NCBI GenBank assembly: GCA_021788015.1
Contig: JAJYLD010000006.1
Location: 1,744-65,743 of the forward strand
Reading direction: 5' to 3'
Source of the DNA: a bacterium
GTDB taxonomy: Bacteria; Patescibacteriota; Patescibacteriia; Patescibacteriales; JAKAJF01
DNA length: 64,000 nt
Below are positions 7,570 through 47,088 of this stretch, one piece after another. Position numbers and translations under genes: made by a program. The notes under the pieces are model-generated. The model had not been told where the DNA came from and did no database searches. It saw only the letters and a program-made list of their open reading frames with translations. The stretch's first letter is position 1. The number at the start of each line of letters is the position of its first letter.

Positions 7570-8778
7570 TCACATCCCCGATCCGGCCAAATTATACATA
7601 GGCAAAATAATCGCCGCAACCATTATACCGACCGCAACGCCCATGACCACCATAATCGCCGGTTCGAGCAACGTCATTATATTGGCGAGAAAATTATCAA
7701 TTTCCCGCGAATAAAAAATGGTAATTCTGTCGAGAATGACGTCGAGTTTGCCGGTTTTTTCCCCGATGTTCATCATTTGGGAAACCATTTTTGGAATTTC
7801 CTTACTGTCGGCGAAAACGCCCGAGATCGAATTCCCGTCTTCCACTTCCTTAATCGTTTTTTCAATCAACTCCTTATAGATTTCATTGCTTACCACCTCT
7901 CCGGATATCTTTAGGCTTTCGGTTATGGCTACGCCTCCCAAAATCAAAGTCGCCATTGATCTGGTGAATCTAACCAAATAAATTCTTTGAAAAAGTTTTC
8001 CAAAAATGGGAATTCTTAATTTTACGTAATCAAAAATTCTCTTTCCCCCTTTCGTTCCCGTATAAAATTTTAAAAATGCGATCACGCCGACTATTATCAA
8101 AAGCAAAAGCATCCAATATTTTATTAAAAAATCTGAAGTGGCCATCACAATACGCGTCGACAAAGGCAGTTGTCCCCCGGTTTCGGCTAGCATTTGCGTC
8201 AATTGAGGAACGACATAAACCATCAATATTATTCCGACGGTGGTTAGCCCGGCGAGAACGAAAATCGGATAAATCATGGCTCCTTTTATTTTGCTCATCA
8301 TGTCATAATCCTTCTCCATCTCGTCGGCGAGATAATTTAAAGATTCCTCGAGTTTTCCCGATGTTTCCCCGGCCTTGATTACGCTTATATAAAAATGGGA
8401 AAAAATTTTCGGCCGCTTAGCCAAGGCTTCGGACAACCTGGAGCCGCTGTCCACTTCATCGGCGATTTCCGAAACCATGGTTTTTAATTTCGGGTTGCTG
8501 ATCTGGTCGATCAAAACTCTCAAAGACTGAACCATGGCCACGTTGGCGGAGATTAAAACGGCGAATTGCCTTGAGAAAATTACCATGTCCTTCGGTGAAA
8601 TCCTATTTAAAAAATCAAGATTAAAATTAATTTTATGACTGACTTCTTTTTTCAGAGAAATCACCGTAAATCCTTTTTCCTGGAGAGTATCGGCCGCGAC
8701 ATCCATATTGGCGGCATCCACCAGACCGCTAAACTGCTGCCTATTTTGGTTTATGGCTTTGTATTTAAAAATTGGCAT
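7570..8778 (-). CDS. pilC: Type IV pilus assembly platform protein PilC (GspF family)
   Basis: 402 aa with a duplicated T2SSF domain and 3 TM segments, adjacent to pilT and pilB. Confidence 0.9.
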   Translation of the reverse strand: MPIFKYKAINQNRQQFSGLVDAANMDVAADTLQEKGFTVISLKKEVSHKINFNLDFLNRISPKDMVIFSRQFAVLISANVAMVQSLRVLIDQISNPKLKTMVSEIADEVDSGSRLSEALAKRPKIFSHFYISVIKAGETSGKLEESLNYLADEMEKDYDMMSKIKGAMIYPIFVLAGLTTVGIILMVYVVPQLTQMLAETGGQLPLSTRIVMATSDFLIKYWMLLLLIIVGVIAFLKFYTGTKGGKRIFDYVKLRIPIFGKLFQRIYLVRFTRSMATLILGGVAITESLKISGEVVSNEIYKELIEKTIKEVEDGNSISGVFADSKEIPKMVSQMMNIGEKTGKLDVILDRITIFYSREIDNFLANIMTLLEPAIMVVMGVAVGIMVAAIILPMYNLAGSGM

Positions 8779-9819
8779 TTAATTGATCTTTAAAGAGTTC
8801 TGTTTTATTTCACCGGTCTTGGTCAATTCTTCTATGCTTTTCCCCATACTAATCATTCCTTCTTTTCTCGAGGTTTGAATAATGCTTTCCAATTGATAAA
8901 TTCTGCCTTCCCTTATCAGGGATTTTACGGCCGAATTCGCAATTAAAACTTCCGTCGCCGGAACCATGCCTCCGCCCATGCGCGGCAACAATCGTTGCAC
9001 GATTATTCCGGAGAGCGTGTCGGCCAAACTGTATCGGGCGGCTTCGCTGTTCATTTTTTTCTCGAGTGAATTCAACATTTTTTCCACGACTCTGATAGTG
9101 TTTTCGGTGTTAAGTTCGAGAAGCACCAAAGCGTTCCCGGAAGCCAAGTCCAAAACCAAAGGCAATACCGAATCGAAATCTTCTTTAAGTTCGCTAAGGT
9201 AAACCAAATCGGCGTCTTCGTCTATGCAATTCTCGATCCCGAGAGCGAAAGATTTGACGTCTTTGCCCACTTGCCTTTGCTCGATTATGCTTTTTTTGCC
9301 GACAAACAAAAATTCAATCGGATTTTCAACGGTTAAAATGCGTTTGCCTTTGCTTTTGTTCACTTCCTCGACCAAAGCGGCGGCCGTAGTAGTTTTCCCG
9401 CTTAACTGGGGTCCGGCGATAATAAAAAGGCCGGAGTCCAAATTAATGATGCTGTTTAAAACTTTTGGCAAATTCAATTCGTTCGGATTTTTGATTATCG
9501 CCGGTATATTGCGAAATGACAAAGAAAGCAGGTCTTTTTGGTAAAAAATTTTAATCAAAAATCTAAAACTGCCCGCGAAATTTTTTACAAGAATGATTTC
9601 CTTTTCCCCTTCCAATTTCTTTTTTTCATCGTCGCTCAAAAACGAGTCGGCTATTTTTTCGATTATTTCCGCCGCCAAAATATTTTCATTGTCCATGGGA
9701 ACAAGCCGGTCGTCAATCCTCAAAACAGGAACGCCACCCACCGAAAAATGAACGGTGGAGGCATTTTTTCTTACCGATTCGGTTAAGATTCGATTGAGAA
9801 AAATTGAAGGTATTTCCAT
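8779..9819 (-). CDS. pilT: PilT-family retraction-type ATPase
   Basis: 346 aa. Walker A GPQLSGKTTT, ILTVENPIEF box, operon context. The Walker B region is somewhat divergent. Confidence 0.8.
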   Translation of the reverse strand: MEIPSIFLNRILTESVRKNASTVHFSVGGVPVLRIDDRLVPMDNENILAAEIIEKIADSFLSDDEKKKLEGEKEIILVKNFAGSFRFLIKIFYQKDLLSLSFRNIPAIIKNPNELNLPKVLNSIINLDSGLFIIAGPQLSGKTTTAAALVEEVNKSKGKRILTVENPIEFLFVGKKSIIEQRQVGKDVKSFALGIENCIDEDADLVYLSELKEDFDSVLPLVLDLASGNALVLLELNTENTIRVVEKMLNSLEKKMNSEAARYSLADTLSGIIVQRLLPRMGGGMVPATEVLIANSAVKSLIREGRIYQLESIIQTSRKEGMISMGKSIEELTKTGEIKQNSLKIN

Positions 9820-26288: not shown

Positions 26289-26441
26289 ACGAAGTTCGAA
26301 CCGAAAAAGTGGCTCAAATTCAAGGATATTGATAAAAGTATAACGGAATTAAGAAAAATGTTCAAAGTTCATCCGGAATGGTTTGAAACGCCGAAGCCGA
26401 AGTCGGAGAAAGGTAAAAGCGAAGTCGAATATTCGATTTAA
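26289..26441 (+). pseudogene. 3'-terminal gene fragment (unknown gene X), copy 1
   Basis: Open for 50 codons after an in-frame TGA. Encodes ..KFEPKKWLKFKDIDKSITELRKMFKVHPEWFETPKPKSEKGKSEVEYSI*. Confidence 0.5.
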
Positions 26442-27301
26442 AAGAAACTTCTCATTTTTTCGATGGATGATTTCAAAATACCATAATCAGTCTTTCCGTT
26501 ATCTTTTTGGTGATGGATTTGGTTTCTAATGAATGTATGAATACTGACTTCGTTTCGATTGCCTTTCCACGGCGAATTTTTTGGTTCGCCTTTTACAGCA
26601 ACGAAAAAGTCATTATCAAACAACTTATAATCCTTGCTAACTCCGTTGGTAGATTTTAATTCCTCGTATAGTTCGTTGTGGTATTCTTCTGTTGCCAAAT
26701 TGAATGCTAAAAAGTTCGTTTCGTTCGCCGAGATGTACGGCAATACTCGTTTCTCTACCTCTAATACTTTTTGCCCATTACATTCCAAAACTCGCACTCT
26801 CACCTTGCTGTTTTCTGATAGCTGTTTTACTAATAGTGGAGAATGAGAAGCGAGCAAAATTTGTGCGTCTTTAGAAAACTCCAGCAGAAAACCGACAAAC
26901 TTTTCTTGCAACCTCGGATGTAAGTGTAGTTCTGGTTCGTCTATAAGAACAATCAACTGCTTTCCGCTTTGTCTGGCGAGATAGAAAGAATATAGAAGCG
27001 CAAAAATCATTTCATATCCCGAACCTAAATTACTCAAAGCAATTTGTTGATGATTGTCTTTCTTGGTGGCAAAGAAAGCTCCCCTAAACGGCTCGTAATT
27101 ATCCAAAAAATCCAATCTGATTTTTGAGCCGCTTATTTCCTCAAATTTTTTTACTGCCTCGGCAAGAAAATTATTTTCAACCCTGTCTTTTTTGATCTTC
27201 TCGTCTAAATCGTCGTTTAGATTCGCAATCCCGGTTTCTAAGCTTTTGTTGAGATATTGATAGCTAAAATCTTCCATTAAACGATGGTTCAAAGTTGCCA
27301 A
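26438..27301 (-). pseudogene. ABC/AAA_21-type (OLD-like) ATPase, N-terminally truncated
   Basis: Signature-like LSNLGSGYE, Walker B LIVLIDEPELHLHP and H-loop LLASHSP are present. No Walker A. The frame is closed by a stop at 27344-27346. Confidence 0.6.
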
Positions 27302-27319
27302 TCTGGCGGGGACGATGTC

Positions 27320-27472
27320 CCGAAGTTTGAACCGAAAAAGTGGCTAAAATTCAAGGATATTGATAAAAGTATAATGGAATTAAGGAAAATGTTCAAAGTC
27401 CACCCAGAATGGTTTGAGACTCCAAAACCAAAGTCGGTTAAGGGAAAGAATGAAGTGGATTATTCTATTTAG
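27320..27472 (+). pseudogene. 3'-terminal gene fragment (gene X), copy 2
   Basis: Homologous to 26289-26441. Begins directly after the tRNA-end-like motif at 27302-27318. Part of ORF 27284..27472. Confidence 0.45.
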
Positions 27473-28107
27473 CCCGGAAGAGTTGCGAGATATTGATCGG
27501 TTATATACAAAACCCCTGATTCTGGAAGTTTTGGTTGTTCCACCTTGTCAATAAAACCGAACTTCTGCGCCTCTGTCGCAGTATAAGTCGTAGTGTTTTG
27601 AAATGCTTTTCTTATGGCTGATAAATTTAGTGTCTTTTGGCCCTTACCGGCAGTTTCTTTCTGTATTATTTTTTGCGTTTTATCATCTGTAGCTAATAGA
27701 GTAGTTTTTTGTGTTTCCAGATCAACTAAATTAAATTGCTCTGGAAGTGTAGTCCTAGGGAGAGTTGTTTGATGAATCAGAAAACTACAATCTGGCACAC
27801 CAATTCTATTTTGGAAACCAAGAAAGAAAGGAACGCCAGCTGAAAAGACACTCCCCATATTATAGACAGTTGTCTTTTGAGGGATTGATTTAACAAAATT
27901 GTAGAGATTTACAGCATAGAATGGATTGCCTCCAAGTGTAGAGAGACATACAACGTATTCTGAAATATTTTGGCCAGATTGTGCCTGATTATTAATGAAA
28001 GCAGTAAAAACATCCTCCATCTTTTTTGTTATAGTCGCGCTACACCATATGTACTGAATTTTCTTCTGTTGTATTTGTTCGTCCATATAATTATTTATGT
28101 TGTACAT
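27469..28107 (-). CDS. ClpP/S14-fold serine protease-like protein
   Basis: 212 aa. LSTLGGNPFYAVNLYNFV..MGSVFSAGVPFFLG..FLIHQ aligns by eye to the ClpP INSPGG..AASMG..IHQP blocks (Ser and His retained). Confidence 0.55.
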   Translation of the reverse strand: MYNINNYMDEQIQQKKIQYIWCSATITKKMEDVFTAFINNQAQSGQNISEYVVCLSTLGGNPFYAVNLYNFVKSIPQKTTVYNMGSVFSAGVPFFLGFQNRIGVPDCSFLIHQTTLPRTTLPEQFNLVDLETQKTTLLATDDKTQKIIQKETAGKGQKTLNLSAIRKAFQNTTTYTATEAQKFGFIDKVEQPKLPESGVLYITDQYLATLPG

Positions 28108-28387
28108 TAAATTTCGGTTGTTCTTTTTTTATTATCCTTTTTTCAATATTGTGAGCTTTTACCTTAGTTTTTACCTGTGCGATCTGAAATTTTGTACCAC
28201 CGGGAATAACCTCTTTCTTAATATCCTTATGTTCTATAAGTCTGTCCTGTGAACGGCCTCTGCCGGCGATTCCAGTGTAGAGATTATTTCCAGAACCATC
28301 CTTAATTTTATAAATAATCGCTTTATTTTTTGGGATTTTAGCAATATTTCCTTTTGTAAACTTTTTGGTTCGACTAAATTTTGTCAT
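28091..28387 (-). CDS. Small GIY-YIG domain protein
   Basis: 98 aa. IIYKI..GNNLYTGIAG..R..RL.EH..N.EKR pattern. Overlaps the downstream ClpP-like gene by 17 nt. Confidence 0.55.
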   Translation of the reverse strand: MTKFSRTKKFTKGNIAKIPKNKAIIYKIKDGSGNNLYTGIAGRGRSQDRLIEHKDIKKEVIPGGTKFQIAQVKTKVKAHNIEKRIIKKEQPKFNVQHK

Positions 28388-28433
28388 ACTATTTTTAAAT
28401 TATTTATTAATTATAGCTGTGGATAAGTAAGCC

Positions 28434-28476
28434 TTGCATACCTTCTATTTTCCTTCTATAATGGAAGTATACCTCC
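28434..28476 (+). promoter_or_regulatory. lexA promoter (TTGCAT-17-TATAAT) with an adjacent imperfect palindrome
   Basis: -35 at 28434-28439 and -10 at 28457-28462. GGAAGTATACCTCC at 28463-28476. Direct repeat CCTTCTAT x2 at 28441-28459. Confidence 0.45.
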
Positions 28477-28501
28477 ACGATAAATAATATGTCAATATCA
28501 T

Positions 28502-29092
28502 ATGCTTACCAAAAAACAAAAATTAGTTTTAGATTTTGTGAAGCAATACGAGAAGAGAATGGGATATTCCCCCTCTCTTGAGGAAATACAACAACATTTC
28601 AAATTGGCTTCTGTATCAACGGCACATTTTCATATTAAGCAACTGCAAAAGAAAGGATTGCTGACAAAAGAGGAGAAGCAGGGACGAACAATATCTGCCG
28701 TAAAAGAAGCTAAAGCCTTAGAAGTGCCACTTGTTGGAAATATTGCCGCAGGGCAGCCTATTGAGGCCATAGAAACGCCTGGTGAAACCGTCTCTGTGCC
28801 AAGAAGCGATATTAAATTACCATTCCAACATTACGCGCTTAGGGTGGTTGGTGACAGCATGATCGAAGACGGGATTTTTAATAACGATATCGTTGTTGTT
28901 AGATCTCAAAACGTAGCCGATAATGGACAGACTACTGTTGCCATCATCGACGATAATCAAGCAACACTTAAAAAGATTTTCAAAGAGAAAGGGAAAATCA
29001 GGCTTCAGCCAGCAAATAAGAAGTTGAAGCCAATTTTTAGGAAGAAAGTTGAAATTAGGGGTGTTGTTGAGAAAATAATTAGAACGCTTTAA
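28502..29092 (+). CDS. lexA: LexA-type repressor (wHTH plus S24 peptidase)
   Basis: 196 aa. N-terminal wHTH, cleavage-site context NIAAGQP, catalytic GDSM and the TLKK lysine. Confidence 0.85.
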   Translation: MLTKKQKLVLDFVKQYEKRMGYSPSLEEIQQHFKLASVSTAHFHIKQLQKKGLLTKEEKQGRTISAVKEAKALEVPLVGNIAAGQPIEAIETPGETVSVPRSDIKLPFQHYALRVVGDSMIEDGIFNNDIVVVRSQNVADNGQTTVAIIDDNQATLKKIFKEKGKIRLQPANKKLKPIFRKKVEIRGVVEKIIRTL

Positions 29093-29094
29093 TT

Positions 29095-31617
29095 ATGAAC
29101 ATTCAACACAAAAAATTAACCTATATAAGTTTATTCAGTAGTGCCGGCGTTGGTTGCTATGGATTTTCACAAGAGGGATTTGATTGCATTGCAACTGTCG
29201 AAATTATCGATAGGCGTTTAGATGTGCAACGACACAATAACAAATGTCTTTACCAAAGCGGATATATTGCAGACGATATCACCAAGAAATCAACGAAAGA
29301 AAAAATCTTTTCCGAGATTGATTTATGGAAATCTAAGCAGGGTCTCAAAGAAATTGACGTGGTACTGGCAACTCCTCCATGCCAGGGCATGTCTGTTGCT
29401 AATCATAAAAAGCTAAATGAACTTAAAAGAAACTCTCTTGTTGTGGAGTCGATCAAGATTGTCGAAGAAATTCGTCCGAAAATTTTTGTATTTGAAAATG
29501 TTCGGGCGTTTCTCTCGACCCCATGCACGGATATCGATAAGAAAGAAAAAACCATACGAGAGGCCATCGAATTAAACCTTGGCGGTAAGTATAACATTCA
29601 CTACCAAGTAATTAACTTTAAGGATTACGGAAACCCATCAAGCCGTACTCGGACCCTCGTTATTGGTATTAGAAAAGATATTCCTGAAATAACACCTCTT
29701 GATCTCATGCCGTCTCTTAGAGATGGTGGCACCTTGCGTGACGCAATCGGAAAACTACCGTCACTGAAAACAATGGGAGAAATTGATTCGAAAGACATTT
29801 ATCACAATTTCCGTCCATATGGTGAACATATGTTGCCGTGGATTGAAAACATAAAAGAGGGCCAGTCAGCTTTTGATAATGTAGACCCTACGCGTCGTCC
29901 TCATCAAATCAAGGACGGAAAGATTGTCTATAACGAAAATAAGAATGGCGACAAGTACTCTCGGTGCTATTGGGATAAGGTCGCCCCGTGTGTACATACA
30001 AGAAATGATATTCTTGCCAGCCAAGCAACGGTACACCCAGAAGATAACCGTGTCTTCAGTATTAGAGAGTTGATGAAAATAATGTCCGTTCCAGACTCAT
30101 TCAATTGGGTAGCCACACCCTTGAACCAGTTGAACAAACTTTCGGTGGAAGAAAAAAAGAAACTTCTCAAGAAAGAAGAGATTAACATTCGTCAGTCGCT
30201 CGGAGAAGCTGTTCCAACAGTGATTTTTGGAAGTATCGCAAAGAAAGCAAAAGAGAAACTGCTTAATGTTGGGAGAAACGACAACCAGATAAAGAAGTTT
30301 ATTCTAGAGAAAGAATTAGATGTTCAGGATAATCTAAAAGTTTTTTTAAAAGACAACATAGGAGATTTCACATATCCTGAGTTGGCAAAAATTGTAGAAC
30401 TTGCAAATGCCGAGCGGCTAAAACATGCCGCATATTACACGAGACAAGATATCTGCTTTACGATAATCAAGGATTTACCAGACACATCAAAATACGAGAA
30501 TTTGTCCATTCTTGAACCGTCAGTCGGCGCAGGTAATTTTCTTCCGTTACTTATTGAGAAATACAAGACAGTAAAGAATGTCGAGATTGATGTCGTAGAT
30601 ATTGATAAAAACGCTATCGAGATACTCAGAGTTCTTTTGAAGAAACTGAGTGTTCCTAAAAATATAAAAATTAACCTTATAAATGAGGACTTCCTCTTGT
30701 ATGGAGAGACGAATCTTTTCAATCAAACGAAGCGGTACGATCTCGTGGTCGGTAACCCCCCGTTTGGAGATATAACTGAGAATAAAGAACTTCTGAGTAT
30801 CTACAAGAAAGACAAGCACAATACAGACACGAATAATCTCTTTTCATTCTTCCTTGAGAAGACAATTCAACTAGGAGATGTTGTTGGTTTGATTATTCCT
30901 AAAAGTTTTCTTTCAGCACCAGAATTCAACAAAACTCGAGAACTTGTGTCTTCTTTTGCACTTGAGAAGATTACCGACTATGGAGAGAAAGGTTTCAAAG
31001 GTGTAAAGATTGAGACGATTAGCCTTATTGTAAATACAAAACAAAAAGGTTCACGTACACTCGTTGAATCATATATTAAGAATGAGATTGGGTTCAAGGA
31101 TCAGTCTTATATTTGCTCAAAGGAATTTCCTTACTGGTTGGTATACAGAAATGAATTCTTTGACTCCGTGGCAAAGAAGCTGAGGTTCAATATCTTCACT
31201 TCGTACCGTGACCGACAGATTACAAAAAAGATTACCAAGTCAAAAGGAAAGATTCGAGTTCTTAAGTCACGCAATATTGGTAAAAATGAGATTGTAGATA
31301 TCCCGAACTACGATTCTTATGTTGATTCCATTGACGGTCTTTCAATTGGAAAGTTCTTTAATGCAGAAAACACTGTATTAGTGCCAAACCTTACCTATAC
31401 CCCAAGAGCAACTTTTCTGCCGGAAAACACTATCGTTGATGGTTCTGTGGCTCTCCTGATGCCAAAAGTTGAAGACGTTGAAATAACATCAAGTGATCTA
31501 GCATATTTTGCCACGGAAGAATTCACGGAATTTTATCGAGTTGCCCGTAATCACGGAACACGCTCACTTAACATAGATAATAATTCCGTCTTCTTTTTCG
31601 GGGTGAAAACAAGTTAA
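29095..31617 (+). CDS. Fused DNA methyltransferase: N-terminal C5-cytosine MTase plus C-terminal N6-adenine (Eco57I/TaqI-type) MTase
   Basis: m5C motifs: FSSAGVG (I), PPCQGMS (IV), FENV (VI), SRTRT (VIII), GEAVP (X). m6A motifs: EPSVGAGNFL (I), VGNPPFG (IV). Starts 2 nt after the lexA stop. Confidence 0.85.
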   Translation: MNIQHKKLTYISLFSSAGVGCYGFSQEGFDCIATVEIIDRRLDVQRHNNKCLYQSGYIADDITKKSTKEKIFSEIDLWKSKQGLKEIDVVLATPPCQGMSVANHKKLNELKRNSLVVESIKIVEEIRPKIFVFENVRAFLSTPCTDIDKKEKTIREAIELNLGGKYNIHYQVINFKDYGNPSSRTRTLVIGIRKDIPEITPLDLMPSLRDGGTLRDAIGKLPSLKTMGEIDSKDIYHNFRPYGEHMLPWIENIKEGQSAFDNVDPTRRPHQIKDGKIVYNENKNGDKYSRCYWDKVAPCVHTRNDILASQATVHPEDNRVFSIRELMKIMSVPDSFNWVATPLNQLNKLSVEEKKKLLKKEEINIRQSLGEAVPTVIFGSIAKKAKEKLLNVGRNDNQIKKFILEKELDVQDNLKVFLKDNIGDFTYPELAKIVELANAERLKHAAYYTRQDICFTIIKDLPDTSKYENLSILEPSVGAGNFLPLLIEKYKTVKNVEIDVVDIDKNAIEILRVLLKKLSVPKNIKINLINEDFLLYGETNLFNQTKRYDLVVGNPPFGDITENKELLSIYKKDKHNTDTNNLFSFFLEKTIQLGDVVGLIIPKSFLSAPEFNKTRELVSSFALEKITDYGEKGFKGVKIETISLIVNTKQKGSRTLVESYIKNEIGFKDQSYICSKEFPYWLVYRNEFFDSVAKKLRFNIFTSYRDRQITKKITKSKGKIRVLKSRNIGKNEIVDIPNYDSYVDSIDGLSIGKFFNAENTVLVPNLTYTPRATFLPENTIVDGSVALLMPKVEDVEITSSDLAYFATEEFTEFYRVARNHGTRSLNIDNNSVFFFGVKTS

Positions 31618-32810
31618 ATATAGAGTTCATTAACCTTTGCCCTAAGTTCGTCAAAGGTTGTATTCGTGGACAGATCAAGAGAAAGTCCGGTATTGATTAC
31701 ATGAATCAGAGATTCTTTCGAATATATGTCTTTGCCTTGCTTAAGTGAAGACTCAATTGTATCTATTTTGGATAGCAAGCATTCCCTTTGATACGGTCGA
31801 TCTATGATCTGAGTGTGGTTGCTCGGATGAGCTTTTGTATTGTGTTGTTGAGGAGTCAAAAGAATAAGGTTTTCAACATACACAGATATTTGTGGAAACT
31901 CATGTTCGGGGAAAATATGATGGACCTGTGTAGCTTCGCCGTTTGCATAGCTGTCCCTGACTTCACTTGCTGTGTGATTTCGCCGAATGATATTCTTCGC
32001 TTTTTGTACCTTATATGCAGAAAGTTCTGGATTCTCTTCAATAATTTCTTCGGATTCCTGGCGTGTTATCGCTTTGTCTTTTCCAATATCTCGGAAGTTA
32101 CTTCTGTTGTACATCAAATCTGAATAAGCAAAACGGTTCTCGGTCATTCTTCCATCTTCTGATCCATTGATCATGTGGTAGACAGCATAAGGATTGAGCA
32201 CTTTCGGGAAAATACGTCGTATCTCAGTACCGCCATTTATATTTGTAAACCCACGCATAAACGCTTCAAATTTTGTTTTGAGTACTTCAAAATCCCTTTG
32301 AGATACCGTACCAGCCTTTGCCTTGTCACGATAAGATTCCAATTCTCCGAAGCCACTGTCGGTCAAAACTTTCTCGACATATACAACTAGAAAAATCCAT
32401 GCATTTCTCTCATTTTGTGCAATATATTCTAGGATTTCTGGCTGTAGGACTTTATATGTATTTCGTACTCCAACTTTTTCTTCTTTTAGGATCTTTGCAA
32501 AAGCTAGTGTTTTTAGTGGTTGAGCAATGAACTTGTCATACTCGGCACTCGCGCTTTCGTTTGTTGGTGATGGTTTGCCGAAGATGGCGACTGTGTTCTT
32601 TTGAAAATACTGGAAGTCCCATAGTTCCTTTGTTGTGAATACAACGCTTGATTCCTTACCACCAAGGAAGTTCACAATACAATCAGCAATGAAAGTGAGA
32701 ACATCAGGAGTCACTTTCTGATCCATGTAACGAGAAAAGCCCTCGGGCTTCTTGCGTAAGTCGAGATCCAAACTTCCTATGTGTTTTCTTATAATGTCCT
32801 CAAAAATCAT
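31614..32810 (-). CDS. HNH-motif restriction endonuclease (putative cognate REase)
   Basis: 398 aa. C-terminal QVHHIFPEHEF...NLILLTPQQHNTKAH. Convergent with the MTase, with stops overlapping by 4 nt. Confidence 0.65.
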   Translation of the reverse strand: MIFEDIIRKHIGSLDLDLRKKPEGFSRYMDQKVTPDVLTFIADCIVNFLGGKESSVVFTTKELWDFQYFQKNTVAIFGKPSPTNESASAEYDKFIAQPLKTLAFAKILKEEKVGVRNTYKVLQPEILEYIAQNERNAWIFLVVYVEKVLTDSGFGELESYRDKAKAGTVSQRDFEVLKTKFEAFMRGFTNINGGTEIRRIFPKVLNPYAVYHMINGSEDGRMTENRFAYSDLMYNRSNFRDIGKDKAITRQESEEIIEENPELSAYKVQKAKNIIRRNHTASEVRDSYANGEATQVHHIFPEHEFPQISVYVENLILLTPQQHNTKAHPSNHTQIIDRPYQRECLLSKIDTIESSLKQGKDIYSKESLIHVINTGLSLDLSTNTTFDELRAKVNELYI

Positions 32811-32862
32811 ATATTTGACTATATAGAATCTATTCTATGTCACAAGTTCTAACTTGGACATC

Positions 32863-32952
32863 TGGCGGAGAGGCAGGGATTCGAACCCTGGGACCTTTTG
32901 ACGGGTCAACACATTAGCAGCGTGCCGCTTTCAACCACTCAGCCACCTCTCC
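32863..32952 (-). tRNA. tRNA-Ser (anticodon GCU), class II with long variable arm, CCA encoded
   Basis: GGAGAGG/CCTCTCC acceptor, anticodon loop CUGCUAA, T-arm CAGGG-TTCGAAT-CCCTG, G discriminator plus CCA. Confidence 0.9.
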
Positions 32953-33929: not shown

Positions 33930-34001
33930 GCACTCGTCGTTCAACGGATAGGACGCAAGATTGCGGATCTTGTAATTGAGGTTCGATTCCTCACGAGTGC
34001 A
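33930..34001 (+). tRNA. tRNA-Arg with genomically encoded anticodon GCG
   Basis: GCACTCG/CGAGTGC acceptor, anticodon stem CAAGA/TCTTG, loop TTGCGGA, T-arm TGAGG-TTCGATT-CCTCA, 4-nt variable loop, no CCA. Confidence 0.8.
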
Positions 34002-34087
34002 CAAAATAAAAAGGCGGATTTCGATCTGCTTTTTTATTTTTGTTCTCGTGAGATTGAGAACCAAATGTATAACGGGGCTTCCGCCCC

Positions 34088-34118
34088 TTCGATTCCTCAC
34101 GAGTGCACAAAATAAAAG
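34088..34118 (+). repeat. Direct repeat of the tRNA-Arg 3' end plus trailer
   Basis: TTCGATTCCTCACGAGTGCACAAAATAAAA (30/30 identical to 33982-34011). Each copy is followed by its own terminator hairpin. Confidence 0.85.
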
Positions 34119-45959: not shown

Positions 45960-46991
45960 TTAAAACTGTTTCAGGAAACGAAGATCTCCGCCATTAAACA
46001 AACGGATGTCTTCGATTCCGTATTTCATCATCGCCAATCTGGTCAAGCCCAAGCCGAAAGCGAATCCGGAATAGATATCGGGGTCGATTCCGCCCGCCCT
46101 TAAAACGTTCGGATGGACCATACCGGCCGGCAATAATTCGAGCCATCCGCTATGTTTGCACGCCGGGCAGCCTGCGCCGCCGCATAAAGCGCATTTTATG
46201 TCCAATTCTATCCCCGGTTCGACAAACGGGAAATAACCCGGTCTTATCCTCGTGTCGACTGCTCTTTTAAAAATGCCGTTTAACAGCTGTTTTAACGTGA
46301 AAATAAGATTATCGATCGATATGTCTTTGTCTACCATCAATCCTTCCATCTGATAAAAAGTGTGCTCATGGCTGGCGTCTATATTTTCCGAACGAAAGAC
46401 TCTGCCCGGAACCACGCCGCGAAAAGGCGCGCCGTATTTTTGCATAGCCCGGATTTGCACGGGCGAAGTGTGCGTCCTCAACACCAAGTCACTTACACCG
46501 GTCCCGTCCGCATCGGTCCGCGCTATGTAAAATGTGTCTTGCATGTCGCGAGCGGGATGATAAGGAGGGATGTTTAAGGCTTCAAAATTATAATAATCGG
46601 ACTCCAATTCCGGCCCGTCCAGAATCATAAAGCCCATGGAAGTAAAAATGTTTTCCAAATCATTTTGTACAAGAGTTATGGGGTGAAGATGGCCGCCTTC
46701 GATTTTTTCGCCCGGCAAGGTGATATCGATGAATCCGCGTTCGCGTTTCCCCCCGAAAAAAATTCTCTTTTCTTCAAATTTTTTCGCCAATTCATTTTTA
46801 ATTTCATTGCCCAACGCGCCGAAGATTTTTTTCTCTTCCCCGTTCAAGCTCGGAATCGATTTCAAAATTTCCGCCAACTCCCCTTTGCGGCCGAGGTATT
46901 TTATTTCCAAGTCGCGAAAAGAATTTAAATCGGAAACTCTTTCCAATTCTCGCAAAGCCTTATCTTTAAGTTGTCGCAATTTTTCTTCCAT
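45960..46991 (-). CDS. pheS: Phenylalanyl-tRNA synthetase alpha subunit
   Basis: 343 aa. Class II motifs (HPARDMQDTFY, FRSENIDASHEHTFYQMEG, GFAFGLGLTRL). Confidence 0.95.
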   Translation of the reverse strand: MEEKLRQLKDKALRELERVSDLNSFRDLEIKYLGRKGELAEILKSIPSLNGEEKKIFGALGNEIKNELAKKFEEKRIFFGGKRERGFIDITLPGEKIEGGHLHPITLVQNDLENIFTSMGFMILDGPELESDYYNFEALNIPPYHPARDMQDTFYIARTDADGTGVSDLVLRTHTSPVQIRAMQKYGAPFRGVVPGRVFRSENIDASHEHTFYQMEGLMVDKDISIDNLIFTLKQLLNGIFKRAVDTRIRPGYFPFVEPGIELDIKCALCGGAGCPACKHSGWLELLPAGMVHPNVLRAGGIDPDIYSGFAFGLGLTRLAMMKYGIEDIRLFNGGDLRFLKQF

Positions 46992-47014
46992 AATTTACGA
47001 ATTTGTGAATTATA

Positions 47015-47070
47015 TGCGAATCTGCGAGCATGCGAATTTTTAAATCAATTCGCGAGTTCGCAGATTCGCG
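47015..47070. repeat. Long imperfect palindrome built from 8-bp units (TGCGAnnn / nnnTCGCA) upstream of pheS
   Basis: Left arm TGCGAATCTGCGAGCATGCGAATTT; right arm CAATTCGCGAGTTCGCAGATTCGCG. 21 of 25 positions are complementary by hand alignment. Confidence 0.6.
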
Positions 47071-47088
47071 CCCATTCGTAGTTTCGCA

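What the first reader, a model, noticed from the sequence alone, without database searches (positions are those of the whole stretch)
28502..32810. Type IIS-like R-M system with a single m5C+m6A fusion methyltransferase and an HNH nuclease, translationally coupled to lexA
ORF 29095-31617 carries a complete C5-cytosine MTase motif set (I, IV PCQ, VI ENV, VIII, X), followed by a gamma-type N6-adenine MTase (EPSVGAGNFL, NPPF). The convergent 398-aa gene, whose stop overlaps by 4 nt, has an HNH motif. Fusion of one adenine and one cytosine MTase with an HNH nuclease is the arrangement described for asymmetric-site type IIS systems of the Alw26I/Esp3I/Eco31I group. This predicts an asymmetric target with A methylated on one strand and C on the other. 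What is unusual is that the MTase ATG lies 2 nt after the stop of a full-length LexA (AAG/QP cleavage context, GDSM, K), with no SD of its own. Methylase expression would therefore be tied to a LexA-controlled, damage-responsive transcript. LexA would sit in the position normally taken by a C (controller) protein.
Basis: partly seen in the sequence, partly recalled or inferred. Interest (0 to 1): 0.6.

Follow-up and report, generated by a model that had tools for sequence, protein, structure and literature searches.

The report
LexA-wired type IIS restriction-modification cassette
A DNA-damage sensor gene (lexA) is built into a mobile HpyAV-type restriction-modification cassette, so the protective methylase probably rises when the cell's DNA is damaged; this link between LexA and methylases recurs, sometimes as a single fused protein, across candidate-phyla-radiation bacteria.

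Summary
The window carries lexA (28502-29092), then 2 nt later an 840-aa C5-cytosine + N6-adenine fusion methyltransferase (29095-31617). A convergent 398-aa HNH nuclease (31614-32810) overlaps it by 4 nt.

The system belongs to the HpyAV/Hin4II family, whose site is CCTTC 6/5. It does not belong to the Alw26I/Eco31I/Esp3I group.

The lexA linkage is not accidental:
- The lexA-M-R trio, with a 2-7 nt lexA/M gap, recurs in more than 20 loci with unrelated flanks. Those with an organism label are Patescibacteria.
- Conserved DNA starts at the lexA promoter and ends at a tRNA 3' end.
- Other lexA genes of this LexA clade (Patescibacteria where named) are followed by, or fused in frame to, other DNA methylases with nucleases.

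The lexA promoter carries a period-11 direct repeat, CCTTCTAT-N3-CCTTCTAT, with the layout of the LexA operators in related promoters. Its units hold the only two CCTTC sites in the cassette. CCTTC is otherwise the most avoided 5-mer in these genes.

Most likely mechanism: an autorepressed lexA-M operon that is derepressed by the SOS response, possibly also sensing methylation, facing a constitutive R gene.

The missing Shine-Dalgarno is uninformative, because about 84% of ORFs here lack one. LexA does not sit in the C-protein position, since some relatives carry both. Translational coupling is inferred, not shown.

I rate it a new variant of a known kind, of high interest.

The parts
28418..28426 (+). 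TGTGGATAA (DnaA-box-like 9-mer). It marks the left edge of the DNA conserved between cassettes.
   Evidence: It is the only copy in the window. In the alignment of 17 window-type lexA upstream regions, homology starts sharply here. The motif also lies upstream of distantly related CPR lexA genes: L015, L017, L101, L107 and L133, and inverted in L110.
28434..28462 (+). Predicted lexA-M promoter: -35 TTGCAT (28434-28439), 17-nt spacer, -10 TATAAT (28457-28462).
   Evidence: Read from the sequence. The block CCTTCTATTTTCCTTCTATAAT is nearly invariant in 17 loci while neighbouring intergenic positions vary.
28441..28459 (+). Direct repeat CCTTCTAT-TTT-CCTTCTAT with an 11-bp period. It is the predicted LexA operator, and its units hold two predicted R-M target sites (CCTTC).
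   Evidence: This is the only exact match in the window. Related lexA promoters carry period-11 repeats in the same place: TTTTCTAT x2 (L133), CTTTCTAT/TTTTCTAT (L135), TGTTCTAT x2 (L110) and TTTCGGT x2 (L109, L015). L099, L100 and L102 carry GCGAACAA x2 just before the ATG. The repeat unit co-varies with the LexA recognition helix. These are the only two CCTTC/GAAGG sites in the 4.45-kb cassette.
28466..28495 (-). Divergent promoter TTGACA-18-TATACT. It overlaps the lexA promoter and points towards the 98-aa GIY-YIG-like ORF (28091-28387).
   Evidence: It matches the consensus at 11 of 12 positions, the best site in the scan. The TGTCAA and TATAC blocks are conserved in 17 loci.
28502..29092 (+). 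lexA: winged-helix DNA-binding domain plus S24 self-cleaving domain.
   Evidence: Pfam and TIGR00498 matches. The cleavage and catalytic residues are invariant. About 56 protein clusters are at least 69% identical, nearly all exactly 196 aa.
29090..29097 (+). The lexA stop / MTase start junction, TAA-TT-ATG.
   Evidence: Read. The gap is 2-7 nt in the close relatives L006, L008, L009, L011, L084-L090, L130-L132 and L136.
29095..30279 (+). C5-cytosine methyltransferase module of the fusion MTase (aa 1-395).
   Evidence: PF00145 E 1.2e-40. PADLOC PDLC03370, a 387-position profile of the same length as M1.Hin4II, E 1.5e-148.
30280..31617 (+). N6-adenine methyltransferase module of the fusion MTase (aa 396-840).
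   Evidence: PF07669 and PF02384. PADLOC PDLC03382, a 445-position profile of the same length as M2.Hin4II, E 2.8e-93. The full-length profile PDLC03277 has 823 positions, the length of M.HpyAV, E 1.5e-228.
31614..32810 (-). HpyAV/Hin4II-type type IIS restriction endonuclease.
   Evidence: PADLOC REase_II PDLC03488, E 1.5e-96. 1845 homologues were found. The AlphaFold model has pLDDT 83. There is no Pfam match.
31827..31922 (-). HNH (beta-beta-alpha-Me) catalytic motif, aa 297-328 (VHHIFP...ENLILLTPQQHNTKAH).
   Evidence: H297, H298, N314 and H323 are invariant. The spacing equals that of the HpyAV catalytic residues H294, H295, N311 and H320, which were tested by mutagenesis. The model shows strand 295-298, strand 315-318 and helix 320-327.
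32811..32862 (-). REase promoter region between the tRNA CCA end and the REase ATG. It contains the palindromes CAAGTT-NN-AACTTG (32843-32856) and ATAGAAT-NN-ATTCTAT (32823-32838).
   Evidence: Palindromes. The -35-like TT(A/T)GAAC and the -10-like TATTAT/TATTCT are conserved in L006, L009, L021 and L085-L090. The ATAGAAT palindrome is kept in L130 but not in L003.
32863..32952 (-). tRNA-Ser(GCT). Its 3' CCA end is the right edge of the conserved cassette.
   Evidence: ARAGORN and Rfam. A tRNA-Ser (GCT or CGA), or a fragment of a tRNA 3' end, lies directly upstream of the REase in L006, L008, L085-L090, L103 and L130.

Best explanation
Window 28416-32862 is a compact, horizontally mobile HpyAV/Hin4II-type type IIS restriction-modification cassette. 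Its predicted site is CCTTC, with m5C on one strand and m6A on the other. It has taken in a complete lexA gene with its native promoter.

Proposed working, with each step marked:
1. One promoter drives lexA and the fusion methylase as a single transcript. The methylase start lies 2 nt after the lexA stop. Co-transcription is strongly inferred; termination-reinitiation is inferred.
2. LexA represses this promoter by binding the period-11 direct repeat CCTTCTAT-N3-CCTTCTAT, which lies between the -35 and the -10. This is inferred from comparative footprinting and from co-variation between operator unit and recognition helix.
3. DNA damage gives RecA-ssDNA filaments, LexA cleaves itself at Ala83-Gly84, and the operon is derepressed. 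Methylase then rises just when the chromosome is being cut, for example by its own nuclease. This is inferred from the intact cleavage and catalytic residues and from established LexA biology.
4. The HNH nuclease gene is read convergently from its own conserved promoter, next to a tRNA. Its 3' end overlaps the methylase gene with no terminator between them. A burst of lexA-M transcription should therefore also dampen nuclease expression by collision or antisense RNA. The architecture is shown; the effect is inferred.
5. On entry into a naive cell there is no LexA, so methylase is made first and is throttled later. That would give the same timing that C proteins give other systems. This step is inferred.
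6. Both operator units contain the enzyme's own target site, so methylation may tune LexA binding. This is speculative.
For: Family:
- PADLOC profiles match over their full length, and their lengths equal those of M.HpyAV, M1.Hin4II and M2.Hin4II.
- The HNH residue spacing is identical to HpyAV.
- CCTTC was named from the literature before the test. It is the most under-represented of 507 5-mers in 11 window-type cassettes (17 observed, 67 expected). It is also the most under-represented of 512 in 56 co-directional M-R pairs (90 observed, 235 expected). In the flanking DNA of the window-type loci the ratio is only 0.80.

LexA belongs to the module:
- The trio occurs in the window, in the JGI locus of P0003 and in L006, L008, L009, L011, L085-L090, L130-L132 and L136/L137. 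L084 shows lexA and the start of the MTase before its contig ends. Flanks are non-homologous where DNA could be compared by BLAST, and the neighbouring genes differ in the other loci.
- Every LexA at least 79% identical that has downstream DNA is followed by this MTase.
- No window-type LexA was found on 2.9 million viral contigs.

Generality:
- There are in-frame LexA::N4/N6-MTase and LexA::C5-MTase fusions. Roughly 90 of the 120 listed clusters keep the LexA-S24-MTase architecture (a further dozen or so lack only the N-terminal domain), and four are named from Patescibacteria. The N4/N6 fusion is followed by a 198-199-aa HNH gene in each of the five loci examined.
- LexA is also followed by a HinfI-type R-M pair in L133 and by a C5 MTase, a presumed REase and a C protein in L101.

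Operator:
- The promoter block is nearly invariant in 17 loci.
- Related lexA promoters carry period-11 repeats in the same position.
- The literature states that the Patescibacteria LexA motif is a direct repeat (PMC7739468).
- L109 and L015 share both the unit TTTCGGT and the recognition helix ..IHQHL.., although they are otherwise distant.
- Only the HpyAV-linked promoters have CC at unit positions 1-2, which creates CCTTC.

Convergent overlap: the M and R 3' ends lie within -11 to +4 nt of each other in all convergent loci. No terminator-like site lies near 31600.
Against: - There are no expression, binding or methylome data. Every regulatory step is inferred.
- Some close relatives work without LexA (L005) or have a 40-nt lexA/M spacer with its own TATAAT promoter (L012, L015, L017, L018). 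LexA control is therefore dispensable or looser there.
- The Woesebacteria trio (L136) lacks the CCTTC repeat in its promoter.
- L012/L015/L017/L018 show no CCTTC avoidance.
- A weak internal promoter-like site lies inside lexA at 29049-29076.
- Whether this genome has a second, housekeeping lexA cannot be seen in 64 kb.
- The LexA lineages next to this MTase differ greatly: 33-35% identity where the MTases are 68-74% identical. That also fits repeated insertion beside resident lexA genes.
Confidence: 0.6

Rival explanations
1. lexA is simply the resident SOS repressor of each host. Its 3' end, together with the neighbouring tRNA, is an insertion hot spot for R-M genes. The adjacency gives the R-M genes a promoter or an addiction advantage but no dedicated regulation, and LexA is not a component of the cassette.
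For: - All these proteins pass the LexA equivalog cut-off.
- L094 and L096 have identical LexA parts and identical upstream flanks but different fused MTases.
- L015 and L017 have 88-92% identical M and R but only 54% identical LexA, as expected if M-R moved between hosts.
- L133 and L110 sit among core genes: rpoBC, SSB, parAB and a sigma factor.
- The window promoter is homologous to ordinary CPR lexA promoters.
Against: - In the window-type clade, LexA (78-97% identity) tracks the MTase (81-91%) across loci whose flanks are unrelated on both sides.
- Conserved DNA starts exactly at the lexA promoter.
- The operator units carry CC, making CCTTC, only in HpyAV-linked promoters. This argues for co-adaptation of lexA promoter and R-M system.
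- A hot spot alone does not explain in-frame fusions kept in roughly 90 of the 120 listed clusters.
Confidence: 0.25
2. The CCTTCTAT repeats are not a LexA operator. They are methylation-sensing promoter elements: the MTase methylates CCTTC in its own promoter and so sets its own level, as in CfrBI-type control. LexA is co-expressed cargo.
For: - The repeats are the only two CCTTC sites in a cassette that otherwise avoids the site strongly.
- A single conserved CCTTC sits at the -35 of the MTase's own promoter in L005, L012, L015, L017 and L018, including L005, which has no LexA.
- Promoter-site methylation control is known for R-M systems; the review lists it in its references.
Against: - Period-11 direct repeats in the same promoter position occur at lexA genes with other MTases or none (L133, L135, L110, L109), with units lacking CCTTC.
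- The repeat unit co-varies with the LexA recognition helix.
- The two readings are compatible, and the best explanation keeps methylation sensing as an optional layer.
Confidence: 0.15
3. The LexA-like protein is the CI-type repressor of a degraded prophage or integrative element. The R-M system is a moron of that element.
For: - The neighbours include a ClpP-like protease with a weak match to phage head-maturation proteases, a truncated AAA ATPase and a GIY-YIG-like ORF.
- G+C is low across 25-34 kb.
- tRNA genes flank the region, and one has a duplicated 3' end.
Against: - The DNA-binding domain is the LexA winged helix (PF01726), not an Xre/CI HTH, and the protein scores above the LexA equivalog cut-off.
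- No window-type LexA was found on viral contigs, and REase homologues there are at most 51% identical.
- No integrase or phage structural gene accompanies the trio in any locus with called genes.
- The neighbours in question are not conserved between loci.
Confidence: 0.04

Closest known systems
HpyAV / Hin4II type IIS R-M systems (CCTTC 6/5; Chan et al. 2010, PMC2816704)
   Same: - The MTase is a single polypeptide with a C5-cytosine module followed by an N6-adenine module (823 aa in HpyAV, 840 aa here).
- The REase is about 400 aa with a C-terminal HNH motif of identical spacing (H-H, +16 N, +9 H).
- The family-level profiles match end to end.
- The cassette avoids CCTTC.
   Different: - M and R are convergent with overlapping stops, not co-directional. 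The paper notes two exceptions to co-directionality.
- A lexA gene precedes the MTase, and the R gene abuts a tRNA.
- The recognition site has not been measured here.
Alw26I / Esp3I / Eco31I type IIS systems
   Same: The logic is the same: an asymmetric site, one adenine and one cytosine MTase activity (fused in some members), and an HNH nuclease. This description of the group is from my own knowledge.
   Different: - The m6A module is not of that family: TIGR02987 scores 67 bits against a cut-off of 353.5.
- The domain order here is m5C then m6A. From memory, M.Alw26I and M.Esp3I have the opposite order.
- The REase is unrelated at the profile level, since the best PADLOC family is the HpyAV-length one.
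MTases that repress their own gene through an N-terminal HTH (SsoII, EcoRII, MspI, ScrFI; listed in PMC3874152)
   Same: A DNA-binding repressor function is tied to MTase synthesis, so MTase output is self-limited. The LexA::MTase fusions L094 and L096 have the same layout, with the DNA-binding domain at the N-terminus of the MTase.
   Different: - Here the repressor is a complete LexA with a RecA-responsive self-cleaving S24 domain. That adds a DNA-damage input.
- In the window it is a separate, tightly abutting gene, not a fusion.
C-protein (controller) dependent R-M systems
   Same: The predicted outcome on entering a new host is the same: methylase first, nuclease later. A small regulator is co-transcribed with an enzyme gene.
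   Different: - C proteins are Xre-type HTH activator/repressors placed upstream of R.
- LexA is placed upstream of M, is a pure repressor and is cleavable.
- Relatives L017, L018 and L101 (and apparently L015) have both a C ORF and a LexA.
lexA-linked mobile SOS cassettes (lexA-imuB-dnaE2 type) and DNA-damage-responsive defence regulators (WYL-domain BrxR/CapW)
   Same: - A lexA copy travels with, and presumably controls, an adjacent gene set. L102 shows lexA-imuB-dnaE2 with a GAAC-N7-GAAC direct-repeat box.
- WYL regulators that sit beside BREX and other phage-defence systems turned up in the literature search. That they respond to DNA damage is from my own knowledge.
   Different: The cargo here is an R-M system. 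The 2013 review on R-M regulation mentions LexA only for toxin-antitoxin systems, and the 2025 review on R-M biology does not contain the term.

Membership tests
HpyAV/Hin4II type IIS R-M | The MTase consists of a C5-cytosine module followed by an N6-adenine module, fused or as M1+M2. | tested here: met
   PF00145 covers aa 9-338, then PF07669/PF02384 cover aa 435-664. PADLOC profiles of 823, 387 and 445 positions match end to end. These equal the lengths of M.HpyAV, M1.Hin4II and M2.Hin4II.
HpyAV/Hin4II type IIS R-M | The REase is about 390-430 aa with a C-terminal HNH site (H294, H295, N311, H320 in HpyAV). | tested here: met
   The protein is 398 aa. H297, H298, N314 and H323 are invariant with the same spacing. 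PADLOC REase_II PDLC03488 gives E 1.5e-96. The model shows beta-beta-alpha at residues 295-327. I could not align directly to the HpyAV sequence, which none of these tools hold.
HpyAV/Hin4II type IIS R-M | Recognises CCTTC and cuts 6/5, with m5C on the top strand and m6A on the bottom strand. | not testable with these tools
   Indirect support only. CCTTC is the most avoided 5-mer in the cassette genes of two gene sets. It is kept only in the promoter.
HpyAV/Hin4II type IIS R-M | M precedes R in the same orientation. | tested here: not met
   The genes here are convergent with a 4-nt overlap. Fifty-six relatives, mostly Bacteroidota, are co-directional. The paper itself lists two exceptions, so this feature is typical rather than defining.
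Alw26I/Eco31I/Esp3I type IIS R-M | The adenine MTase belongs to family TIGR02987 (met_A_Alw26). | tested here: not met
   The score is 67.2 bits against a cut-off of 353.5, and only 135 residues match.
LexA (TIGR00498) | An N-terminal LexA winged-helix DNA-binding domain plus a C-terminal S24 domain, scoring above the equivalog cut-off. | tested here: met
   172.7 bits against 110.95. PF01726 E 1.8e-14 and PF00717 E 5.7e-29.
LexA (TIGR00498) | An Ala-Gly scissile bond and a Ser/Lys catalytic dyad. | tested here: met
   A83-G84, S119 (GDSM) and K157/K158 (TLKK) are invariant in relatives and in all MTase-linked LexAs.
LexA (TIGR00498) | Autoregulation through an operator in its own promoter. 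| tested here: inconclusive
   A period-11 direct repeat lies between the -35 and the -10. It is conserved in 17 loci and parallels the repeats at related lexA genes, and its unit co-varies with the recognition helix. There is no binding assay.
LexA (TIGR00498) | RecA-stimulated self-cleavage and control of an SOS regulon. | not testable with these tools
   There is no operator copy in front of any other gene in the window. One weaker match lies inside an ORF. The rest of the genome is not available.
C-protein controlled R-M | A small Xre-type HTH ORF upstream of, and co-transcribed with, R. | tested here: not met
   In the window a tRNA-Ser lies 52 nt upstream of R and there is no HTH ORF. 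C ORFs are present in L017, L018 and L101.
SsoII-type self-repressing MTase | A DNA-binding domain fused to the N-terminus of the MTase. | tested here: not met
   In the window these are separate ORFs with a stop codon between them. In relatives L094 and L096, and in roughly 90 of the clusters listed, the feature is met with a LexA domain.

The most novel reading that the evidence does not exclude
In candidate-phyla-radiation bacteria, the SOS repressor LexA has been recruited as a general controller of restriction-modification. R-M modules of at least five unrelated kinds are wired behind lexA or fused to it.

In the HpyAV-type cassette the LexA operator has been re-tuned, from TTTTCTAT to CCTTCTAT, so that each half-site contains the enzyme's own methylation target. 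LexA occupancy would then report both DNA damage (through self-cleavage) and the methylation state of the cell (through m5C/m6A in the operator). Together these would make an autoimmunity-sensing feedback loop. In the fusion proteins, self-cleavage would release the MTase from its DNA tether.
Probability: 0.25. Interest if true: 0.9.

Novelty: new variant of a known kind. Interest (0 to 1): 0.74.

Why it matters
R-M systems must make methylase before nuclease and must avoid cutting their own host. The known solutions are C proteins, HTH-bearing methylases, antisense RNAs and promoter methylation.

A built-in, self-cleaving DNA-damage sensor would be a further solution. It would link an innate-immunity module directly to the SOS response, so that self-inflicted breaks raise the antidote.

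The pattern is broad:
- Window-type LexA forms about 56 protein clusters.
- Roughly 90 of the 120 listed clusters are LexA::MTase fusions, which public annotation simply calls 'LexA'.
- At least five kinds of R-M partner are involved.

This suggests that in CPR bacteria, with their tiny genomes and few regulators, lexA is a preferred docking point for R-M genes. Three consequences follow. Many annotated 'LexA' genes in CPR genomes are really parts of R-M systems. SOS regulon reconstructions in these phyla should take this into account. DNA damage may reshape methylation and phage defence in these organisms.

The idea can be tested with cloned genes in E. coli.

Tried and rejected
- **Alw26I/Eco31I/Esp3I membership:** rejected (TIGR02987 at 67 bits against 353.5).
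- **HphI as the family:** I recalled it from memory and dropped it once the HpyAV paper gave exact matches in architecture and lengths.
- **PDB sequence search of the REase:** nothing.
- **Site avoidance in the host window:** CCTTC has O/E 0.87, which is uninformative. The test only became informative when restricted to the cassette genes.
- **Second att repeat of the tRNA-Ser 3' end:** none of 10 nt or more in the window. The way the cassette moves stays unknown.
- **LexA control of the R promoter:** the window-lineage palindrome ATAGAAT-NN-ATTCTAT carries two TTCTAT units and is kept in L130. It is degraded in L003 and absent in L006, L009 and L085-L090. I do not claim it.
- **Palindromic LexA boxes (CTGT-N8-ACAG, GAAC-N4-GTTC):** none seen upstream of lexA. 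The palindrome around GTATAC is better explained as the -10 of the divergent promoter.
- **ATTCG repeats upstream of the ORF at 45960-46991:** I took them for a possible SOS box in front of recA. The gene is pheS, so I dropped this.
- **Phage carriage:** not supported.
- **Sanchez-Osuna et al. 2017 on the Patescibacteria SOS network:** not held in the library. Its motif is known to me only through a citing sentence.

Full report
**1. The observation**

- lexA (28502-29092) has the LexA winged-helix domain and the S24 domain. It scores 172.7 bits on the LexA equivalog model, whose cut-off is 110.95. The Ala83-Gly84 bond, Ser119 and the TLKK lysine are present and invariant in relatives.
- The 840-aa ORF (29095-31617) is a C5-cytosine MTase (aa 9-338) followed by an Eco57I/N6_Mtase-type adenine MTase (aa 435-664).
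- Its ATG starts 2 nt after the lexA stop.
- The 398-aa convergent ORF (31614-32810) overlaps it by 4 nt, TTAA. It has no Pfam match. It carries an invariant H-H...N...H motif.
- Its AlphaFold model (pLDDT 83) places that motif on a strand-strand-helix unit.

**2. Which R-M family**

The m6A module does not belong to the Alw26I/Eco31I/Esp3I family: TIGR02987 scores 67 bits against a cut-off of 353.5.

PADLOC gives end-to-end matches to four profiles:
- a type II MTase profile of 823 positions (E 1.5e-228);
- two half-length profiles of 387 and 445 positions;
- a REase profile (E 1.5e-96).

Chan et al. 2010 (PMC2816704) describe HpyAV/Hin4II as follows:
- M.HpyAV is an 823-aa true fusion of a C5 and an N6A MTase.
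- Hin4II has M1 (387 aa) and M2 (445 aa).
- The REases are 418-419 aa, with HNH residues H294, H295, N311 and H320.

The window nuclease has H297, H298, N314 and H323, the same spacing.

I then tested CCTTC, named in advance from that paper, for self-avoidance:
- With maximal-order Markov expectations pooled over 11 window-type cassettes, CCTTC/GAAGG is the most under-represented of 507 5-mers (17 observed, 67 expected; the next-lowest ratio is 0.50).
- In 56 independent co-directional M-R pairs, mostly Bacteroidota, it is again first of 512 (90 observed, 235 expected). In flanking DNA the ratio is 0.80.

**3. Is lexA part of it?**

A genome scan with the nuclease found 291 encoded relatives, of which the best 80 loci were kept. 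They show two architectures:
- Co-directional M then R: 56 loci, mostly Bacteroidota, never with a lexA.
- Convergent M/R: those with an organism label are mostly Patescibacteria.

In the convergent group a lexA sits directly upstream of the MTase on the same strand in:
- the window and a JGI contig whose REase is 94% identical;
- L006, L008, L009, L011, L012, L015, L017 and L018;
- L085-L090 and L103 (L084 shows lexA and the MTase start before its contig ends);
- L130-L132;
- a published Woesebacteria genome, L136/L137.

It is absent in L005, L013 and L063.

Further points:
- Outside the three genes the loci share nothing by BLAST, apart from a small divergent ORF.
- Every LexA at least 79% identical that had downstream DNA is followed by this MTase.
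- The database holds about 56 clusters of this LexA at 69% identity or more, nearly all exactly 196 aa.
- In an alignment of 17 upstream regions, similarity begins abruptly at TGTGGATAA (window 28418).
- On the other side, similarity ends at the CCA end of a tRNA. This is tRNA-Ser with a GCT or CGA anticodon in most loci, or a tRNA 3' fragment.

The conserved unit is therefore window 28416-32862, and it behaves as a mobile cassette. No integrase or second att copy was found. Window-type LexA is absent from viral contigs.

**4. A wider pattern**

The LexA-based scan, the follow-up look-ups and the locus maps showed other lexA genes of this LexA clade joined to other methylases (organism labels, where given, are Patescibacteria):
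- L094 and L096 encode true in-frame fusions: LexA::N4/N6-MTase (475 aa) and LexA::C5-MTase (521 aa). The LexA parts are identical up to the junction.
- Roughly 90 of the 120 listed clusters keep the LexA-S24-MTase architecture (a further dozen or so lack only the N-terminal domain). Named sources include Portnoy-, Vogel- and Jorgensenbacteria and Paceibacterota, and NCBI labels them 'transcriptional repressor LexA'.
- The N4/N6 fusion is followed by a 198-199-aa HNH gene in each of the five loci examined.
- L133 has LexA, then an N4/N6 MTase, then a HinfI-family REase.
- L101 has LexA, then 2 nt later a C5 MTase, facing a convergent presumed REase and a C protein.
- Counter-examples exist: L102 has lexA-imuB-dnaE2 and L135 has no MTase.

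Two reviews of R-M regulation and biology, from 2013 and 2025, do not mention LexA control of R-M. My literature searches found no description of these fusions. The one paper on the Patescibacteria SOS network is not held.

**5. The promoter**

Upstream of lexA lie a -35 TTGCAT (28434-28439), a 17-nt spacer and a -10 TATAAT (28457-28462). The spacer and the -10 contain the direct repeat CCTTCTAT-TTT-CCTTCTAT, which is unique in the window and nearly invariant in 17 loci.

Related lexA promoters carry period-11 direct repeats in the same place:
- TTTTCTAT x2 (L133);
- CTTTCTAT/TTTTCTAT (L135);
- TGTTCTAT x2 (L110);
- TTTCGGT x2 (L109, L015).

L099, L100 and L102 carry GCGAACAA x2, which reads GAAC-N7-GAAC, just before the ATG.

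A citing paper states that the Patescibacteria LexA motif is a direct repeat. L109 and L015 share both the TTTCGGT unit and the recognition helix IHQHL, although they are otherwise distant. I therefore read the repeat as the LexA operator.

Only the HpyAV-linked promoters have CC in the first two unit positions, which creates CCTTC. These are the only two CCTTC sites in the window cassette. Where the MTase has its own promoter (L005, L012, L015, L017, L018), one CCTTC is conserved at its -35. A role for promoter methylation is thus plausible but unproven.

A strong divergent promoter (11 of 12 matches) overlaps the lexA promoter. It points at a GIY-YIG-like ORF. In relatives it points at a conserved 67-68-aa ORF.

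**6. The nuclease side**

The 52 nt between the tRNA and the REase ATG hold a conserved promoter-like pattern. A palindrome with two TTCTAT units is limited to the window's closest lineage, so I do not claim LexA control of R.

The M and R 3' ends abut or overlap in all convergent loci, and no terminator is predicted.

**7. Mechanism and its limits**

The best-supported reading is an autorepressed lexA-M operon that is derepressed by the SOS response, opposite a constitutive, convergently transcribed R gene.
- On entry into a new host, the absence of LexA gives early methylase. Read-through into R would also dampen the nuclease.
- Later, LexA throttles the operon.
- DNA breaks, including self-restriction, cleave LexA and raise methylase again.

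What is shown:
- gene content, residues and spacing;
- conservation and mobility of the cassette;
- operator architecture;
- site avoidance.

What is inferred:
- LexA binding;
- LexA cleavage;
- translational coupling;
- transcriptional interference;
- methylation sensing.

The missing SD is not evidence, because only 9 of 58 ORFs have one.

Rivals:
- Insertion beside resident lexA genes. This is supported by LexA lineages only 33-54% identical next to MTases 68-88% identical, and by L094/L096.
- A purely methylation-sensing promoter.
- A prophage repressor, which is unlikely.

**8. Verdict**

The R-M system is a new member of a known family. Its LexA wiring, and the widespread LexA-MTase linkage behind it, is a new variant of R-M regulation that I could not find described.

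Noticed in passing
window 28418-28426; also L015, L017, L101, L107, L110 (inverted), L133, L135 (variant), upstream of lexA: A perfect DnaA-box-like 9-mer, TGTGGATAA (reverse complement TTATCCACA), sits just upstream of the -35 of lexA promoters across distantly related CPR LexA lineages. It is the point where cassette homology begins. Its function is unknown; it could be DnaA input into lexA or a promoter element.
   Followed up: partly
L094:3612-5039, L096:3644-5209, L107-L110; proteins P0121-P0212: Full LexA proteins (HTH, S24 domain and intact cleavage site) are fused in frame to N4/N6 or C5 DNA methyltransferases. Roughly 90 of the 120 listed clusters keep this fusion; the four with an organism name are Patescibacteria. 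The N4/N6 fusion is followed by a 198-199-aa HNH nuclease in the five loci examined. Public annotation calls them just 'transcriptional repressor LexA'.
   Followed up: partly
L133:5001-7981 (222-kb contig CAZDFQ010000001.1): A lexA gene is followed by a 528-aa N4/N6 MTase and a HinfI-family restriction endonuclease, among core genes (rpoBC, S6 and SSB upstream, parAB downstream). Its lexA promoter has TTTTCTAT-TCA-TTTTCTATAAT.
   Followed up: partly
L085, L088, L089, L090, L103 (REase about 8117-9304): The LexA and MTase match the window type (about 80% identity), but the convergent nuclease is only about 31% identical. It keeps the HNH motif. The nuclease partner has therefore been swapped or has diverged much faster than the methylase.
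   Followed up: partly
window 32863-32952; L006, L008, L021, L085-L090, L103, L130: The REase end of the cassette always abuts the CCA end of a tRNA gene. Most are tRNA-Ser with a GCT or CGA anticodon, and L021 has what looks by eye like a tRNA-Asp. Some loci have a leftover tRNA 3' fragment, with an intact tRNA 150-250 nt further on. This looks like tRNA-targeted integration, but no integrase or distal repeat was found.
   Followed up: partly
L006:7507-7713, L009:4548-4757, L011:11433-11639, L130:5658-5861, L136:2724-2927: A conserved 67-68-aa ORF (W-x-P-x-E...PTRVIGLKLxRP...GVxAKAxxxGxSL, no Pfam match) is transcribed divergently from lexA in many cassettes. It may be a fourth member. In the window a GIY-YIG-like 98-aa ORF (28091-28387) takes its place. 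That ORF is 38% identical to the divergent neighbour of a LexA::MTase fusion in L109.
   Followed up: partly
L015, L017, L018 (upstream of the REase) and L101:4978-5202: These relatives carry a classical Xre-type C-protein ORF overlapping the REase start, in addition to the LexA upstream of the MTase. In L015, L017 and L018 the MTase also has its own TATAAT promoter. The L012/L015/L017/L018 group shows no CCTTC avoidance (O/E 0.92), unlike the other two groups.
   Followed up: partly
window 26290-26440 and 27321-27471: A 151-nt direct repeat brackets the 287-aa AAA-ATPase ORF (AbiEii/PtuA-like C-terminal part only). The repeat finder reports 85% identity and the MAFFT alignment reports 93% mean column identity. 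The repeat is the 3' part of the 62-aa ORF at 27284-27472, so the ATPase gene looks like an insertion that duplicated its target.
   Followed up: partly
window 33982-34011 and 34088-34117: A perfect 30-nt direct repeat that includes the 3' end of tRNA-Arg(GCG), with copies 106 nt apart. It looks like an att-type scar of an integrated or excised element.
   Followed up: no
window 46992-47075 (upstream of pheS, minus strand): A run of (A)ATTCG(C/T)A-like repeats lies in the pheS leader. I first mistook it for an SOS box. Its nature was not examined; it could be a leader or attenuator.
   Followed up: no
whole window: Only 9 of 58 ORFs of at least 100 aa have a GGAG/GAGG core within 20 nt upstream. 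Several promoters place the -10 element a few nt from the ATG. This suggests that SD-independent or leaderless initiation is the norm in this organism.
   Followed up: partly
window 27469-28107: A 212-aa ClpP-like protease ORF with weak similarity to phage head-maturation proteases overlaps the start region of the GIY-YIG-like ORF by 17 nt. It lies in the low-G+C stretch at 25-34 kb, which may be a variable or defence island.
   Followed up: no
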